From Escherichia phage LPEK22, in the sequence record OK283619.1: 64,000 nucleotides of DNA; one strand, written 5' to 3'. Shown here one piece after another: positions 41,204 through 46,342 of the stretch (within the stretch, counting starts at the first letter, position 1; every line of letters starts with the position of its first letter). Under the pieces are notes generated by a model, which was not told where the DNA came from, searched no databases, and saw only the letters and a list, made by a program, of their open reading frames with translations. The translations under genes were made by a program, and so were the position numbers.

Positions 41204-41668
41204 ATGGCGCGTAATACGCTGGACATCTTAAAACTTTCAGCTGTCAACGATGAGGCCAGCATTGTTGACTGTATGGTTGAAGTTCAATTGAACCAAGACA
41301 AACCAGGGATTTTCCTGGGTATCAAGGAAACGCTGAGTCGGATAGGGGTTAACACTCGTCAAGAGCCTAACACCTTGTATCAAACGTGCCATATTCTGCA
41401 TAAATTTGGCAGATATCACATCGTGCATTTCAAGCATCTTTTCATGCTAGATGGGCACTACAACGGCTTTACGCGTGAAGATGTCCTGCGTATGAATCGG
41501 ATTATACGGCTTCTGGAGCAATGGAATATGGTTAAGATCTTGCATCCGGAACAAATAACCGAAGTGGCTGACATGTCTCGGATCAAAGTTGTAAAACATG
41601 ACCAAGTTTCTGAGTGGAAACTGGTTCCAAAATACACCATTCGCCCAAGTCGGGCAAAAAGCGAATAA
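41204..41668 (+). CDS. regA: RegA-like translational repressor
   Basis: LYQTCHILHKFGRYHIVHFKHLFMLDG and EWKLVPKYTI match T4 RegA (LYQSCHILQKKGLYYIVHFKEM, EWKLVPKYTI) as recalled. Confidence 0.85.
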   Translation: MARNTLDILKLSAVNDEASIVDCMVEVQLNQDKPGIFLGIKETLSRIGVNTRQEPNTLYQTCHILHKFGRYHIVHFKHLFMLDGHYNGFTREDVLRMNRIIRLLEQWNMVKILHPEQITEVADMSRIKVVKHDQVSEWKLVPKYTIRPSRAKSE

Positions 41669-41684
41669 CTGGAGTCGCTATATT

Positions 41685-42548
41685 ATGACAACTACATTTA
41701 ATAAAAACGTGAGATTGAATTTGGCTTTTGGTAATGCGGCTGGAGATATTACAGCCCCTGACTTCGGTAAAATTCGCAATCAGGCCAAACTGGTTCTGGA
41801 AGAGACCCGCGAATTACTGGAAGCGGCTTATTTCGATCATGACATCAAACTTGAGCTGGTGGCAACTCCAAAAGAAGACACCGATGATGTTGATATGGAT
41901 AAAATCCTGAAAGCCATCATGGACGCTCAGGGTGATATCACAACTGTTAATGACGGCGTGGCCCATATCGCTGGTTTTAATGGTGATGAATGTTTACAAC
42001 GCGTGTTTGCCTCTAACATGAGCAAATTTATTCGCTCAGAAGATGAAGTCGGTCCGGCACTGGAATATTATTATTCACGCGGTTTCCCAGATGGCCAGTT
42101 ACGCGTTGAAGGTGAATTCCCTCAGGCATGCATCAAAGTGAATGAGACTGTGATGTGGAATGGCAAAGAATATCCGAAAGGAAAATTCCTGAAAAACATG
42201 GCTGTGTTCAAAGAGCCTGATTTCTCTGATATGCTGACGAATACCCCTTCCCGTCAGATCAATGACATCGTTGCCAGCATGGCAATTGAAGAAGGTCAGG
42301 TATTTGTTGATGATATGAACGGCGTGGCGTTGGTATCTCCAAAAACGTTGGAAGTAATTCTTTCTATGGCAGTTGAAAAATCTTCTCGACCCGTAGATGT
42401 TAACGGCCAAATTGAAAGTTATGTGCCAGCGTATATCATTAACGATACCAATATGCCTAAGCTGTGTGGGGTGTGGGGTGCTAATGTTCGTGTATACGCG
42501 TGCGCACCTGTTCAAAACACTGTGACACACCTCTCTCGCTTCGATTAA
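41685..42548 (+). CDS. Hypothetical protein (287 aa); N-terminal region is possibly a MazG/HisE-like nucleotide pyrophosphohydrolase
   Basis: ATG at 41685 with GGAG RBS (track start at 41598 overlaps regA). LVLEETRELLEAA resembles the EExxE metal-binding helix of MazG-type all-alpha NTP pyrophosphatases. Weak. Confidence 0.45.
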   Translation: MTTTFNKNVRLNLAFGNAAGDITAPDFGKIRNQAKLVLEETRELLEAAYFDHDIKLELVATPKEDTDDVDMDKILKAIMDAQGDITTVNDGVAHIAGFNGDECLQRVFASNMSKFIRSEDEVGPALEYYYSRGFPDGQLRVEGEFPQACIKVNETVMWNGKEYPKGKFLKNMAVFKEPDFSDMLTNTPSRQINDIVASMAIEEGQVFVDDMNGVALVSPKTLEVILSMAVEKSSRPVDVNGQIESYVPAYIINDTNMPKLCGVWGANVRVYACAPVQNTVTHLSRFD

Positions 42549-42572
42549 TATAATCCGTTATTCACTAAACAA

Positions 42573-42600
42573 CAGAGGCTATAATGGCCTCTGTTTTTGT
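42573..42600 (+). terminator. Rho-independent terminator
   Basis: cagaggc/gcctctg stem with tataatg loop, followed by tttttg. Confidence 0.7.
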
Positions 42601-42617
42601 ATTCTAGAGAGGATACC

Positions 42618-43823
42618 ATGAAAGATAAACCACATGACATCCCATATTGCGGTGTCCGTGAAACCAAAATCAAATCAGCCCATCCTATGTTAAGTTCATT
42701 CCACCGCCAGCTGGCATATGAATGGATGAGGGATCGTTATGCGATACATGTCAAGAAGGACGTGCAATGCCTTCCAGCGCCATGGACGGATAATCCGGTA
42801 TTACGCCAAGTCAAGTTTTGTAACGTGCGGAGAGAGCACGATAGGCAGTCTCGAAATTTGATCAATAATATCATCCTCGATCAGGATCTCACGCTATCTG
42901 ACAAAATGTTCAACTGTGTATTGTTCCGCATGTACAACATGTGGGAACCTATACAGGCTTTGGGTGGTCCATGGACGATCGAAGAATTCGGAAACATAAA
43001 TCTTGAATGGTGTCGAGATGTTCTTCAGGAATTCGAATCTAAAGGTGGCAAAGTTTTCACCAATGCGTTTAATACAGGCGGTCTGAAACAATGCCTGGCT
43101 TTCCCTGAACTAGTTGTCAACCACAAGGAGCAACGCTTTGGCGGCATGAAGGTAAAAGTCCATCGGGTTGGCGGTGTTATAGATGAAATGGATTACAAGG
43201 TTGCCAAGAAGCTGGCCGAAGATAATCCTGGTGAATACAAAATAGAAGGCTGGGAACCATACATGCCGATGCGAGTCATCCGCTCTTTGAAGGCATTCGT
43301 CAACAAACACCCTCATTACTTTGATCGCCTCAGGGAATTTAGCCGTCCCGACTCTGTTTACCAGGCGATGTATGACGACATTGAGGGGCTTGGACCATTC
43401 TTGGCATACCAGATTTGGGTTGATTTTACATACATCGATGAATATCCATTCAGTGAAAACCACTTCACTATCGCTGGTCCAGGTTGCCGTGCTGGTATCG
43501 ATCTGTTATTTTTGGACAAGGACGGCATGACGCATGAAGAATGCATATTCTGGGTTCGTGATCATCAAGATCAATTGTTCGCTCAGTACGGGTATAAACG
43601 TAATGAATTTTGGTCGGCAGAAGAACCGGAAGACCGTTGCATGAATGTTATGCAGTTGGAGAACATGTTCTGTGAACTTCAGAAATATACCCGCTGCGTT
43701 GAGGCGGTGATGCGCGGGGAGAAACCTCGAGGAAAGGTGGGGTATAATGGTGGTGAAGTTAATCAGCCATTACAGAAGACTCCCGTTCGTTCTATTAATC
43801 TGTTAGAGAAGATGAAAAAATGA
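42618..43823 (+). CDS. Hypothetical protein (401 aa), unassigned enzyme-sized ORF
   Basis: ATG at 42618 with RBS agagagga (track start is TTG). No P-loop, no thymidylate-synthase or ThyX motif seen. Confidence 0.55.
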   Translation: MKDKPHDIPYCGVRETKIKSAHPMLSSFHRQLAYEWMRDRYAIHVKKDVQCLPAPWTDNPVLRQVKFCNVRREHDRQSRNLINNIILDQDLTLSDKMFNCVLFRMYNMWEPIQALGGPWTIEEFGNINLEWCRDVLQEFESKGGKVFTNAFNTGGLKQCLAFPELVVNHKEQRFGGMKVKVHRVGGVIDEMDYKVAKKLAEDNPGEYKIEGWEPYMPMRVIRSLKAFVNKHPHYFDRLREFSRPDSVYQAMYDDIEGLGPFLAYQIWVDFTYIDEYPFSENHFTIAGPGCRAGIDLLFLDKDGMTHEECIFWVRDHQDQLFAQYGYKRNEFWSAEEPEDRCMNVMQLENMFCELQKYTRCVEAVMRGEKPRGKVGYNGGEVNQPLQKTPVRSINLLEKMKK

Positions 43824-44227
43824 AACCCGTAAAACATCATCGTTCATGGAAAGTATGCCCAGCGTGTTCAAGTCGGGCGACAAAATTGTTCAACATGAAT
43901 ACTGGGAAATATGAATGTCAAGTCTGTCGGCATCATTATGATGATCCAAAATGTCGATCTTTGGTCGACAAAATTTATAAATTTATCATTTTGTTGGGTA
44001 ATTGCGAGCAATATCAATATACCGTGTATGGTGATAGTTTAAGCCAGATCGATAAACATCTTTTGAAATTGATTTCGAAATACGATAAAGAAAGCAAGCG
44101 CCCTGTGCGCGTTGTGAGTACTCCAAAGGGTTATCCAAAGGGAACAAGATCAGTTACGGTTGTTGGTTACACCAGTTATGACGGGAAACGGTTCAGAAGT
44201 ATTCGAGTAAACATGATTCCCGTTTAA
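43820..44227 (+). CDS. Zinc-ribbon protein (135 aa)
   Basis: CPAC...CQVC pattern. ATGA overlap with the upstream gene. Confidence 0.5.
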   Translation: MKPVKHHRSWKVCPACSSRATKLFNMNTGKYECQVCRHHYDDPKCRSLVDKIYKFIILLGNCEQYQYTVYGDSLSQIDKHLLKLISKYDKESKRPVRVVSTPKGYPKGTRSVTVVGYTSYDGKRFRSIRVNMIPV

Positions 44228-44323: not shown

Positions 44324-46342
44324 ATGGCAGAATTCAAACCCTTCGCAACGGCAGTTAATAACAACGTGCTGGCGATGTCCGCAACTGGTCTGTTCATGAC
44401 CAATATCGATAAAGATGCTCTTTGGGATCTGTATCTGGCATCTTTCCCTGCTGGTACTAACCCGCTGTACCGCGAACGTACTGAACACGATTGCACCTGC
44501 TGTAAACAATTCATCCGTAACATCGGCGGTGTTGTCACCATCGATTCAGAACTGAACGTAATTTCTATCTGGGACAACATTGATCTGGGTAATGAATATG
44601 ACGTGGTGGCTGCGGCTCTTTCCGCGTATGTCAAACAACACGCAATCGTCGATGTTTATTTTAACGATTCTGCCAAAGTCGGCCTGTCTCACAATCACGA
44701 ATCTGGTGAAGATGGCAAAATCCGTACTTACAATCATTTCCATACCCAATTACTTGGTAGCTATGTTCTGCGTCCGGACGCAATCGCTTCGAAAAAAGGT
44801 GAAATCCGCCAGGCTATTGAATTGTTTGAACGCGGTCTGCGTGAAATTACTCTGGAATCAGCTGAAATCGTTCTGGAACTGATTGACCAGAATTCTCTGT
44901 ATCGCGGCGCAGAACACAAAGCAGCAGTGAAGGGATTTGTTGAAACCAAAAAGGCATATGAACAAGTCCCCGAATCAGCCCGTTCTCTTTGGGCATGGCA
45001 TACTGGATACCGTTCAAACAATCATGTTCCACACGGCATCCGCAACACAGTTATCGGCACTCTGCTGACAGATATCAGCGAAGGCGTGGAACTGGAAAAG
45101 GCTGTTAAATCGTTTGAATCCAAAGTTGCTCCGGCGAACTACAAACGTCCGACAGCGCTGGTTTCAAAATCCATGATCGAAAACGCTCAGAAAGAAGTTA
45201 TTGCTCTGGGTTTGGAAGACTCACTGGCGCGTCGTTATGCGGTTTACGATGATCTGACAATCAACAACGTTCTGTTCGCAGATCTGGCCGCTCAGAAAGC
45301 GATGGATCCGTTTGCACAGCTGGCCGCCGAAGTGAAAACTCCGACCAAATCCCTGGAAAAAGTTGAAGAGATCAGCGTTGATGATTTCCTGAGCAATGTT
45401 CTGCCAAAAGCGCATTCAATGGAAGTGCTTGTAGAGAATTCTCATACTAGCAACCTGATGTCCCTGGTTGCTCCGGCGAACCCAGATGCGCCTAACCTGT
45501 TCAAGTGGAACAACGGTTTCTCCTGGTCTTACAACGGTGAAGTGACCGATTCCATTAAAGAACGTGTAAAGGCTGCTGGTGGTAAAGTTGACGGGTATCT
45601 GCGCGTTTCCTTGGCGTGGCACAACAACGACGACCTCGATCTGCATATGTTCAACAACATGGAGCACGTTTACTTCCGTGATCGCCGCTCTATGACAGGT
45701 GCCCATCTGGATATCGATATGAACGGTATGGATGGTATTGATCCAAACCGCGCTCCGGTGGAAAATATCATCTTTACAGATGAAAGCAAGCTGCGCGATG
45801 GTGAATACCGTTTCGAAATCCACAACTACAATCAACGTGAAAAAATCGACGAAGGGTTTGAAGTCGAAGTAGAATACAAAGGCGCAACGCATCGTTTCAG
45901 CCATCCTGGCCTGAAAGATCAGGGGCGTATCACTGCAGTCATCCTGACTGTTAAAGACAAACAAGTTGTTGGCATTAAGTCCGAACTGGCTAATGTTGAT
46001 AAGTCTAAAGAAGTTTGGGGTATCAAGACCGCGACCTTCCAGAAAGTACAGCTGGTTCTGAATTCACCAAACCATTGGGATGGGGAGCAAACTGGTAACA
46101 AGCATGTGTTCTTCATTCTTGAAGGCTGTGCTAATCCTGAAGGTACTCGTGGTTTCTACAACGAATATCTGAAGCCGGAACTGGATAAACATCGTAAGGT
46201 TTTTGAAATGTTGGGTAGTAAAATGAAAGTCCAGCCGAATGAAAACCAACTGTCCGGTCTGGGATTCTCGACGACGCAACGCAACCACGTGTTCGTCAAA
46301 GTGTCCGGCGCGTTTAACCGTACTGTAAAAGTCATTTTCTAA
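44324..46342 (+). CDS. Hypothetical protein (672 aa), unassigned
   Basis: Long clean ORF with ATG and upstream caggaagactataccATG context. No motif recognised by eye. Confidence 0.6.
   Translation: MAEFKPFATAVNNNVLAMSATGLFMTNIDKDALWDLYLASFPAGTNPLYRERTEHDCTCCKQFIRNIGGVVTIDSELNVISIWDNIDLGNEYDVVAAALSAYVKQHAIVDVYFNDSAKVGLSHNHESGEDGKIRTYNHFHTQLLGSYVLRPDAIASKKGEIRQAIELFERGLREITLESAEIVLELIDQNSLYRGAEHKAAVKGFVETKKAYEQVPESARSLWAWHTGYRSNNHVPHGIRNTVIGTLLTDISEGVELEKAVKSFESKVAPANYKRPTALVSKSMIENAQKEVIALGLEDSLARRYAVYDDLTINNVLFADLAAQKAMDPFAQLAAEVKTPTKSLEKVEEISVDDFLSNVLPKAHSMEVLVENSHTSNLMSLVAPANPDAPNLFKWNNGFSWSYNGEVTDSIKERVKAAGGKVDGYLRVSLAWHNNDDLDLHMFNNMEHVYFRDRRSMTGAHLDIDMNGMDGIDPNRAPVENIIFTDESKLRDGEYRFEIHNYNQREKIDEGFEVEVEYKGATHRFSHPGLKDQGRITAVILTVKDKQVVGIKSELANVDKSKEVWGIKTATFQKVQLVLNSPNHWDGEQTGNKHVFFILEGCANPEGTRGFYNEYLKPELDKHRKVFEMLGSKMKVQPNENQLSGLGFSTTQRNHVFVKVSGAFNRTVKVIF

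What the first reader, a model, noticed from the sequence alone, without database searches (positions are those of the whole stretch)
42618..43823. Unassigned 401-aa ORF between regA and denV
This is an enzyme-sized ORF with a good RBS in the nucleotide-metabolism neighbourhood. It has no P-loop and no thymidylate-synthase or ThyX signature by eye. If the phage is Vi1-like, it is expected to carry hydroxymethyl-uracil-derived DNA hypermodification (recollection of that family, not seen in this window), and this ORF would be a candidate for one of those steps. That link is a hypothesis only.
Basis: inference. Interest (0 to 1): 0.5.

Follow-up and report, generated by a model that had tools for sequence, protein, structure and literature searches.

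The report
Orphan enzyme of phage thymidine hypermodification
The ORF is the Cba120/ViI "gp160" gene, a known but biochemically unassigned DNA-base-flipping enzyme of the pathway that decorates thymines in this phage's DNA, and comparison across phages makes it a testable candidate for the missing step that turns leftover 5-hydroxymethyluracil back into thymine.

Summary
The 401-aa ORF (42618-43823, +) is real. It is 100% identical to Cba120 orf156 and 78% identical to Salmonella phage ViI gp160, and it is under strong purifying selection (dN/dS 0.07). It is a confident member of Pfam PF18723 (E = 1.6e-83), formerly aGPT-Pplase clade 1 and now called "5-hmdU DNA kinase helical domain".

It is not the kinase (no P-loop), and it is not the characterised serine:DNA transferase gp247 (PF18724). 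Purified kinase, gp247 and gp226 rebuild 5-NeOmdU without gp160, so its reaction is unassigned.

My analysis found the following:
- An E-N-x-x-C-E-x-x-K motif parallels the clade-2 metal/Cys site. C352, E353 and K356 are invariant in 141 of 141 homologs.
- The residue after the Cys sets donor specificity in clade 2, but it is always Glu here, whatever base the phage makes.
- The gene lies next to or is fused with the kinase in M6, PaMx11 and SP10. It is present in all six phages of known chemistry I checked.

Best reading: a Cys-dependent enzyme acting on 5-phosphomethyl-dU in DNA. The most likely specific role, which is inferred and not shown, is conversion of non-hypermodified sites to thymine.

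The parts
42618..43823 (+). 401-aa CDS. Ortholog of ViI gp160 / Cba120 orf156. Member of PF18723 (aGPT-Pplase clade 1, 'HMUDK_hel').
   Evidence: ORF list and sequence. Pfam E = 1.6e-83. phrog_2396 E = 2e-155. 100% identity to Cba120 orf156. 78% identity to ViI gp160. AF2 pLDDT 87.6.
42606..42613 (+). Ribosome-binding site AGAGAGGA, 4 nt before the ATG.
   Evidence: Read directly from the sequence.
42571..42605 (+). Terminator-like hairpin (11-bp stem, loop inside GGCTATAATGGCC) followed by a T-rich tail, between the MazG-like gene and this ORF.
   Evidence: Consensus scan. Function not shown.
42816..42845 (+). N-terminal conserved block F67-C-N-V-R-R72-E-H-D75-R. R72 and D75 are invariant in 141 of 141 homologs.
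   Evidence: Alignments.
43116..43247 (+). Lineage-specific insert, residues 167-210. Predicted as a small beta-sheet plus helix. Present in fewer than 40% of family members.
   Evidence: Column occupancy. Two-stretch matches of shorter homologs. DSSP strands 178-192 and 207-209.
43380..43505 (+). Two helix-hairpin-helix-like elements, residues 255-296 (GLGPFLAYQIWVD269 and AGPGCRAGIDLL). F261, D269, G287, G289 and G293 are 99-100% conserved.
43659..43685 (+). Putative active-site helix motif E348-N349-M-F-C352-E353-L-Q-K356. C352, E353 and K356 are invariant; E348 is 89% and N349 is 94% conserved.
   Evidence: It is the only profile-profile alignment to the clade-2 E-T-x-x-C motif. Roles of the clade-2 residues come from PMC11472151 and PMC13458397.
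41679..42548 (+). Context: upstream MazG-like nucleotide pyrophosphatase (Cba120 orf157, ViI Vi01_131c).
   Evidence: phrog_2144 E = 4.9e-136. Annotations.
43820..44227 (+). Context: 135-aa Zn-ribbon ORF whose ATG overlaps the stop of the CDS (ATGA). Function unknown.
   Evidence: Weak Zn-ribbon Pfam hits. phrog_16119.

Best explanation
The ORF encodes the clade-1 'aGPT-Pplase' (PF18723) of the Kuttervirus thymidine-hypermodification system. The phage replicates with 5-hydroxymethyl-dU in place of T. P-loop kinases then phosphorylate the hydroxymethyl group on the DNA, and gp247 plus gp226 turn a subset of sites into 5-NeOmdU (all shown by others). I propose that this protein is a second, catalytically active, DNA-base-flipping enzyme of the same fold as gp247. 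It would bind duplex DNA through its HhH hairpins and flip out 5-phosphomethyl-dU. Its invariant Cys352 would attack C6. With the E348/N349 (metal) and E353/K356 residues it would expel phosphate to give the exocyclic-methylene intermediate. Unlike clade 2, it would then carry out one donor-independent reaction common to all these phages. The most likely such reaction is reduction of the intermediate to thymidine at the sites that are not hypermodified, which would explain why virion DNA contains T and the hypermodified base but no 5-hmdU. Shown here: family membership, orthology, fold, motif invariance and gene linkage. Inferred: catalysis, substrate, and above all the thymine-forming outcome. 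The confidence value of 0.6 is for 'active Cys enzyme on activated 5-hmdU in DNA within this pathway'. I put the specific thymine-forming reaction at about 0.3-0.35.
For: - Membership and orthology.
- Motif: C352, E353, K356, R40, R72, D75, G287 and G289 are invariant in 141 unique sequences with about 26% mean column identity. The only hhalign match to clade 2 superposes E348/C352 on the clade-2 metal-ligand Glu and catalytic Cys (roles).
- Common reaction: the C+1 residue is K, G or W in the Gly-, diamine- and Ser-specific clade-2 enzymes, and swapping it together with one other pocket residue reprogrammes the donor. In clade 1 it is Glu in 141 of 141 sequences, across phages making five different bases.
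- Link to the kinase product: KIN-C1 adjacency in M6 and PaMx11, with the stop overlapping the start in PaMx11. Fusions in SP10 gp186, Goe26, P0122 and L035. KIN-C2-C1 clusters in myovirus contigs.
- Present in all six phages of known chemistry: ViI/Cba120, M6, PaMx11, SP10, PhiW-14 gp72 and 15599_00016. All have T plus a hypermodified base and no hmU (PMC8989533; PMC13458397).
- Chemistry: the clade-2 methylene intermediate is reduced to dT by borohydride.
- Dispensable for 5-NeOmdU synthesis in vitro, yet as widespread as gp247 in Ackermannviridae (identical record counts per host genus) with dN/dS 0.07.
- Absent from Mycobacterium phage Prince, which makes hmU post-replicatively with a T-dioxygenase and has clade 2 plus a kinase. 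0 of 18 related loci have clade 1.
Against: - No assay of any clade-1 protein exists in the literature I could reach.
- No hydride-donor or cofactor-binding domain is recognisable (no Rossmann motif; the only Pfam domain is PF18723).
- SP10 has clade 1 but no detectable clade 2 and still makes alpha-glutamylthymidine. So clade 1 may be a transferase there, or an unrecognised enzyme such as the 896-aa gp185 does that step.
- The clade 1 to clade 2 sequence relationship is not statistically significant (hhalign E = 0.067).
- The T-dioxygenase contrast rests on essentially one lineage.
- Isolated kinases work without clade 1, which fits my proposal but equally fits an accessory role.
- Pfam's curators now treat the domain as a helical domain of the kinase.
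Confidence: 0.6

Rival explanations
1. It is a second nucleophile:DNA transferase (AADT-like). It would add its own donor, for example an amino acid or other small nucleophile, to 5-PmdU. The product would be a minor or transient base, or the same base in other sequence contexts.
For: Same fold and the same Cys/Glu-type motif as the clade-2 transferases. SP10 makes alpha-glutamylthymidine yet has only clade 1, fused to its kinase, and no clade 2. The original computational prediction named all clades as pyrophosphorylases/transferases (cited in PMC8989533).
Against: ViI and Cba120 virion DNA is reported to contain only T and 5-NeOmdU in place of T. gp160 is not needed for 5-NeOmdU synthesis. 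The pocket residue that varies with donor in clade 2 is an invariant Glu in clade 1 across phages with five different modifications, which is unexpected for donor-specific transferases.
Confidence: 0.2
2. It is a non-catalytic or regulatory partner of the 5-hmdU DNA kinase. As a DNA-binding, base-flipping 'helical domain', it would present 5-hmdU to the kinase or set which sequence contexts are phosphorylated.
For: Pfam's present name and description. Recurrent fusion and adjacency with the HMUD1-type kinase. M6 gp54 alone phosphorylated only about 23% of 5-hmdU in vitro, so there is room for a specificity or efficiency factor.
Against: Kinases, including the SP10 kinase domain with the C-domain deleted, are active alone. 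An absolutely invariant Cys-Glu-x-x-Lys, together with invariant Asp and Arg residues, in a family with 26% mean identity is the signature of an active site rather than a scaffold. The motif also mirrors the clade-2 catalytic site.
Confidence: 0.13
3. It is a genuine HhH-type DNA glycosylase. It would excise leftover 5-hmdU/5-PmdU, or uracil, so that repair synthesis installs T.
Against: No hit to any glycosylase Pfam family. The family's hallmark is a Cys motif shared with a transferase rather than with glycosylases. Classical labelling work, as summarised in PMC8989533, says thymine arises from 5-hmdU at the polymer level rather than by replacement. Excising up to about 60% of T positions would be very costly.
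Confidence: 0.05

Closest known systems
Salmonella phage ViI gp160 (Vi01_130c, YP_004327501) / Escherichia phage Cba120 orf156 (AEM91856)
   Same: Orthologs: 78% identity with ViI gp160 and 100% with Cba120 orf156 over the full length. Same start, and the same position next to the MazG-like gene and regA. ViI gp160 was one of the five lysates that reconstituted 5-NeOmdU (PMC5889632).
   Different: Nothing of substance. The window's gene is the Cba120-type allele. No individual function has been published for gp160.
Pfam PF18723 (HMUDK_hel; formerly aGPT-Pplase clade 1): M6 gp55, PaMx11 gp50, SP10 gp186 C-domain, PhiW-14 gp72, Acinetobacter phage 15599 gene 00016
   Same: Same family by HMM and the same invariant residues. 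The same genomic association with the kinase, the TS-like hydroxymethylase and clade 2.
   Different: The Kuttervirus protein carries a 44-residue insert (167-210) and lies far from the kinases and from gp247. In M6 and PaMx11 the gene is adjacent to the kinase, and in SP10 it is fused to it.
Amino-acid:DNA transferases, PF18724 (aGPT-Pplase clade 2): ViI gp247, M6 gp51, PaMx11 gp46/PUGT (PDB 8Z2M/8Z2N), YuA and 15599 Pplase2
   Different: No significant sequence similarity (BLASTP E = 0.16; hhalign E = 0.067). E-N instead of E-T. C+1 is an invariant Glu instead of a donor-specific K/G/W. Not required for the hypermodified base in vitro. Fused to kinases, which was not seen for clade 2 in my samples.
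HhH-GPD DNA glycosylases (MutY/MUTYH, AlkA, Ogg, EndoIII) and the queuine-salvage enzyme DUF2419/Qng1
   Different: About 10% identity and no Pfam match. The hallmark residues differ (Cys-Glu-Lys motif), and there is no evidence of glycosylase chemistry.

Membership tests
PF18723 / aGPT-Pplase clade 1 (HMUDK_hel) | Scores above the curated Pfam gathering threshold over most of the model | tested here: met
   280.8 bits against a cutoff of 25. Model positions 5-278 of 281, residues 31-363.
PF18723 / aGPT-Pplase clade 1 (HMUDK_hel) | All-alpha, HhH/DNA-glycosylase-like fold | tested here: met
PF18723 / aGPT-Pplase clade 1 (HMUDK_hel) | Family-invariant residues present (R40, R72, D75, G287, G289, C352, E353, K356) | tested here: met
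   All are present in the query and invariant in 141 of 141 sequences.
PF18723 / aGPT-Pplase clade 1 (HMUDK_hel) | Genome also encodes a 5-hmdU DNA kinase and the means to put 5-hmdU into DNA | tested here: met
   These genes are not in the 64-kb window. In ViI, gp243 is PF18747 and gp67 is a kinase (PMC8989533). Genomes with an identical copy of this ORF (kage, Se-U, Se_EM3) also carry the gp247 ortholog. Cba120 makes 5-NeOmdU.
Amino-acid:DNA transferase, PF18724 (clade 2) | Match to the PF18724 HMM or significant similarity to characterised members | tested here: not met
   No PF18724 hit at E <= 1. BLASTP against gp247 E = 0.16. hhalign E = 0.067. No PDB sequence hit to 8Z2M.
Amino-acid:DNA transferase, PF18724 (clade 2) | E-T metal ligands followed by the catalytic Cys | tested here: inconclusive
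   The query has E348-N349-x-x-C352 with the same spacing as E243-T244-x-x-C247 of PUGT. The correspondence rests on a non-significant alignment and could not be checked in 3D.
Amino-acid:DNA transferase, PF18724 (clade 2) | Transfers a free amino acid or amine to 5-PmdU in DNA | not testable with these tools
   Needs an enzyme assay.
5-hmdU DNA kinase (P-loop; PF18748/PF18747) | Walker A P-loop and a kinase-domain HMM match | tested here: not met
   No [AG]x4GK[ST] motif. No kinase family hit. ViI gp243 and M6 gp54 do hit the kinase families.
HhH-GPD DNA glycosylase superfamily | HhH-GPD sequence profile with the catalytic Asp/Lys arrangement | tested here: inconclusive
   No such hits in Pfam, NCBIfam or PHROGs.

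The most novel reading that the evidence does not exclude
Clade-1 'aGPT-Pplase' (this ORF, ViI gp160, M6 gp55, PaMx11 gp50, SP10 gp186C, PhiW-14 gp72) is the long-sought polymer-level thymine-forming enzyme. It would be a Cys-dependent, base-flipping '5-phosphomethyl-dU reductase' that converts every activated 5-hmdU not captured by the transferase into ordinary thymidine inside duplex DNA. This step has been inferred since about 1980 for PhiW-14 and SP10, and no gene has ever been assigned to it.
Probability: 0.3. Interest if true: 0.75.

Novelty: already known. Interest (0 to 1): 0.42.

Why it matters
The gene itself is not new. It is in Pfam, it was cloned from ViI in 2018, and at least one GenBank record labels it Pplase1. 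It still matters because it is a conserved member of the thymidine-hypermodification gene set that has no assigned reaction. Separately, the pathway has a reaction with no assigned gene: the conversion of leftover 5-hmdU to thymine.

Three papers reconstructed these pathways without mentioning the clade-1 gene that sits next to the genes they studied:
- the 2021 pathway paper,
- the 2024 PaMx11 structural paper,
- the 2026 Acinetobacter phage paper.

If clade 1 performs the thymine-forming step, or any other defined chemistry on DNA, it would complete the pathway. It would help explain how the modified fraction is set, and it would add a new DNA-editing activity (hmU to T in duplex DNA) to the enzymatic toolbox. 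In practical terms, most database records call this gene 'hypothetical protein', 'terminase small subunit' or even 'ABC transporter', and these labels should be corrected.

Tried and rejected
- NCBIfam gave no hit.
- Sequence searches of the PDB found nothing, with either the single sequence or the family profile.
- hhalign of clade 1 against clade 2 gave only a non-significant local match. I therefore do not claim sequence homology between the clades.
- My first neighbourhood survey (77 IMG/VR loci, +/-10 kb) suggested that most clade-1 genes lack a nearby kinase or clade 2. I nearly concluded that a whole podovirus class lacks them. Extending one contig showed clade 2, kinase and TS just outside the window, and 7 clade-2 hits are cut by locus edges. 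I rejected that conclusion as a window artefact.
- The search for related loci with the broad alignment failed because no stretch was conserved enough.
- Contig walking by exact patterns is limited by fixed storage stretches.
- The classical SP10 and PhiW-14 papers, Iyer et al. 2013 and the EcoSal review are not held. The Lee 2021 supplements, which hold the drop-out figures, are not held either. I could not see whether a gp160 drop-out changed dT.
- The T-dioxygenase contrast could only be widened to one mycobacteriophage lineage.
- I first read 'GPGCRA' as a possible Rossmann-type motif. I rejected this because it is a canonical HhH hairpin.
- The phrog_800 'terminase small subunit' hit is a propagated misannotation and not evidence of a packaging role.

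Full report
**1. The observation**

The ORF exists exactly as described. It has an ATG at 42618, a stop ending at 43823, and encodes 401 codons. An AGAGAGGA ribosome-binding site lies at 42606-42613. An 11-bp-stem terminator-like hairpin at 42571-42595 separates it from the upstream gene. Its TGA overlaps the ATG of the next ORF (ATGA at 43820-43823).

It is a real, selected gene:
- The DNA is 100% identical in dozens of Kuttervirus genomes, including Escherichia phage Cba120, where it is orf156, 'conserved hypothetical phage protein'.
- The protein has more than 900 homologs in the 90%-clustered collection and 2,359 clusters at 50% identity.
- dN/dS against the ViI ortholog is 0.07, with synonymous sites saturated.

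The immediate neighbours are a MazG-like pyrophosphatase (41679-42548, phrog_2144) upstream and a 135-aa Zn-ribbon ORF downstream. regA (41204-41668, phrog_242) lies one gene further upstream.

**2. Identity**

Pfam places residues 31-363 in PF18723 (E = 1.6e-83, 280.8 bits against a cutoff of 25). PHROGs gives phrog_2396, function unknown.

PF18723 is now named 'HMUDK_hel, 5-hmdU DNA kinase helical domain'. GenBank and the literature still use the older name for it, 'alpha-glutamyl/putrescinyl thymine pyrophosphorylase clade 1' (for example phage Guerrero; SN1 and SW16-7).

The gp numbers used by Lee et al. follow the orf00xxx notes of the ViI record. gp160 is therefore Vi01_130c. That gene sits beside the MazG-like gene and regA, just as the query does, and it is 78% identical to the query over its full length.

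ViI gp160 was one of five lysates (gp67, gp160, gp226, gp243, gp247) that together converted 5-hmdU DNA into 5-NeOmdU (PMC5889632). Cba120 'natively synthesizes 5-NeOmdU' (PMC8989533).

**3. What it is not**

- It is not a kinase. It has no P-loop and no kinase HMM hit, whereas ViI gp243 is PF18747 and M6 gp54 is PF18748.
- It is not the proven transferase. ViI gp247, M6 gp51 and PaMx11 gp46 are PF18724 (ADDT). The query shows no significant similarity to them (BLASTP E = 0.16; profile-profile E = 0.067).
- Lee et al. 2021 rebuilt 5-NeOmdU from purified kinase, gp247 (serine:DNA transferase) and gp226 (PLP decarboxylase). Their table of characterised proteins omits gp160, M6 gp55 and every other clade-1 protein.

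I found no later paper that assigns a reaction to clade 1. [quoted passage not shown]

**4. Fold**

No clade-1 protein has a solved structure.

Residues 167-210 are an insert present in fewer than 40% of family members.

**5. Active-site signature**

I aligned 141 unique clade-1 sequences: distant representatives, 77 IMG/VR loci, and the proteins of six phages with known DNA chemistry.
- R40, R72, D75, G287, G289, C352, E353 and K356 are invariant.
- F67, R104, F261, D269 and G293 are at least 99% conserved.
- N349 is 94% conserved and E348 is 89% conserved.

The motif E348-N349-x-x-C352-E353-x-x-K356 has the same spacing as the clade-2 motif E243-T244-x-x-C247-K248 of PUGT and M6 gp51. In clade 2 the Glu-Thr pair binds the essential metal and the Cys attacks C6 of 5-PmdU, expelling phosphate to give an exocyclic methylene (PMC11472151; PMC13458397; PMC8989533). 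The only local alignment hhalign finds between the clades is this helix.

This degree of invariance, in a family with about 26% mean column identity, indicates an enzyme rather than a passive 'helical domain'.

**6. A donor-independent reaction**

In clade 2 the residue after the Cys is a proven donor-specificity determinant:
- Lys in the glycine enzymes,
- Gly in the 1,3-diaminopropane enzyme,
- Trp in the ViI serine enzyme.

The G227K/D238Y double swap reprogrammes the donor (PMC13458397; sequences).

In clade 1 that position is Glu in 141 of 141 sequences. This holds whether the phage makes a Ser-derived (ViI/Cba120), Gly-derived (M6, PaMx11), putrescine (PhiW-14), diaminopropane (15599) or glutamate (SP10) base. 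I infer that clade 1 performs one reaction common to all these phages.

**7. Gene linkage**

- Clade 1 follows the kinase directly in M6 (gp54-gp55) and PaMx11 (gp49-gp50, with stop and start overlapping).
- It is fused to the kinase in SP10 gp186, Bacillus phage Goe26, metagenomic P0122 and L035.
- It lies in KIN-C2-C1 clusters in large myovirus contigs and Vibrio Ackermannviridae.
- Within Ackermannviridae, the record counts for gp160 and gp247 homologs are identical for most host genera: Salmonella 164/164, Vibrio 62/62, Klebsiella 45/45.

A first survey suggested that many podovirus contigs lack a kinase and clade 2 near clade 1. Extending one contig showed them 10-14 kb away, so I withdrew that inference.

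Clade-1 genes that the pathway papers do not mention exist in PaMx11 (gp50) and in Acinetobacter phage 15599. In 15599 the gene is SHAb15599_00016 (E = 5.7e-46), next to the dUMP hydroxymethylase and the dTTPase gp18.

**8. Proposed function**

Virion DNA of SP10, PhiW-14, M6 and ViI contains no 5-hmdU. Sites that are not hypermodified become canonical thymine (PMC8989533). Phage 15599 DNA likewise shows dT and dapT, with no 5hmdU reported. No enzyme has been assigned to that conversion.

The clade-2 methylene intermediate can be reduced chemically to dT. The following observations fit a thymine-forming role for clade 1:
- It has a conserved, donor-independent, Cys-type active site.
- It is coupled to the kinase.
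- It is present in all six phages that show T plus a hypermodified base.
- It is dispensable for the hypermodified base itself.
- It is absent from a phage that makes 5-hmdU only at selected sites by a T-dioxygenase. That phage is Mycobacterium phage Prince, with the gene order ParB, hydroxylase, clade 2, kinase, and with no clade 1 and no TS-like gene. In addition, 0 of 18 related loci have clade 1.

This is an inference and not a demonstration.

The main objections are these:
- No reductant-binding feature is visible.
- SP10 has no detectable clade 2, so its clade-1 domain may itself add glutamate.

I therefore give about 0.6 to 'active Cys enzyme on activated 5-hmdU in DNA' and about 0.3 to the specific thymine-forming reaction. 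The rivals are a second transferase (0.2), a kinase accessory or specificity factor (0.13) and a glycosylase (0.05).

**9. Verdict**

The finding is a correct call on a gene that is already catalogued (Pfam family, ViI gp160), so its novelty is 'already known'. Its remaining interest is that the family is an orphan within an otherwise solved pathway. The comparative evidence assembled here turns an old open question, how these phages regenerate thymine from 5-hmdU in DNA, into a direct experiment on this protein.

Noticed in passing
window 44324-46342 (+): A 672-aa conserved ORF (Cba120 orf153) has no Pfam hit and only unknown-function PHROGs. In the ViI record the syntenic region is annotated as two overlapping CDSs (Vi01_128c and Vi01_129c), which suggests a frameshift, a split gene or an annotation difference between the two phages.
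   Followed up: partly
window 41679-42548 (+): The upstream neighbour is a MazG-like pyrophosphatase (phrog_2144, E = 5e-136) with no Pfam hit. MazG-like genes also recur next to clade 1 in about 48 of 77 viral loci. It could be the dTTP/dUTP-clearing enzyme of the pre-replicative arm, by analogy with gp18 of phage 15599. The mechanical ORF starts at 41598 and overlaps regA, while the Cba120 annotation starts at 41679.
   Followed up: partly
window 43820-44227 (+): A 135-aa Zn-ribbon ORF (CxxC...CxxC; phrog_16119, function unknown) is translationally coupled to the clade-1 gene through an ATGA overlap. Any functional link to the clade-1 protein is unknown.
   Followed up: no
window 42571-42605 (+): The terminator-like hairpin upstream of the ORF carries TATAAT in its loop (GGCTATAATGGCC). 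It may act as a terminator, a promoter element or both.
   Followed up: no
L093:8961-9926 (Acinetobacter phage SH-Ab 15599, SHAb15599_00016) and L085:6022-6909 (PaMx11 gp50): Both phages, whose hypermodification pathways were published as complete, carry a clade-1 (PF18723) gene next to the studied genes. The papers do not mention it. In 15599 the clade-2 gene occupies the clamp-loader/regA-adjacent slot that clade 1 occupies in Kuttervirus.
   Followed up: yes
L088:15651-18341 (SP10 gp185): The 896-aa protein just upstream of the SP10 kinase-clade-1 fusion has no Pfam hit at E <= 0.001, although it was listed as a radical-SAM candidate in 2018. SP10 has no detectable clade-2 gene, so gp185 is a candidate for the missing glutamyl-transfer or tailoring activity.
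   Followed up: partly
L014, L022, L025 and about 17 other IMG/VR loci, within about 0.5 kb of clade 1: A TET-associated-glycosyltransferase-like protein (PF20691) sits directly beside clade 1 in about 20 podovirus-type contigs, together with dCMP deaminase, an HD-domain protein and the MazG-like gene. This hints at glycosylated hmU derivatives in those phages.
   Followed up: partly
database records for homologs: Misannotations are widespread. The 5-hmdU DNA kinases of M6, PaMx11, SP10 and PhiW-14, and some clade-1 genes, are labelled 'terminase small subunit'. One Klebsiella phage clade-1 protein is labelled 'phospholipid-lipopolysaccharide ABC transporter'. The 2018 paper's PPlase1/PPlase2 columns do not correspond to the Pfam clades: M6 gp51 is Pfam clade 2.
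   Followed up: yes
Microbacterium phages, e.g. MG925347 36863-37207: About 33 small Microbacterium siphophages have ORFs that match only the C-terminal third of the query (residues ~250-375, about 30% identity), the part that carries the HhH hairpins and the Cys motif. They may represent a minimal or divergent version of the family.
   Followed up: no
L097:1-3465 (Mycobacterium phage Prince): A compact four-gene module (ParB-like, thymidine hydroxylase, clade-2 'DNA glycosylase', kinase) lies at the genome left end, next to the terminase. The genome has no clade 1 and no TS-like gene.
   Followed up: yes
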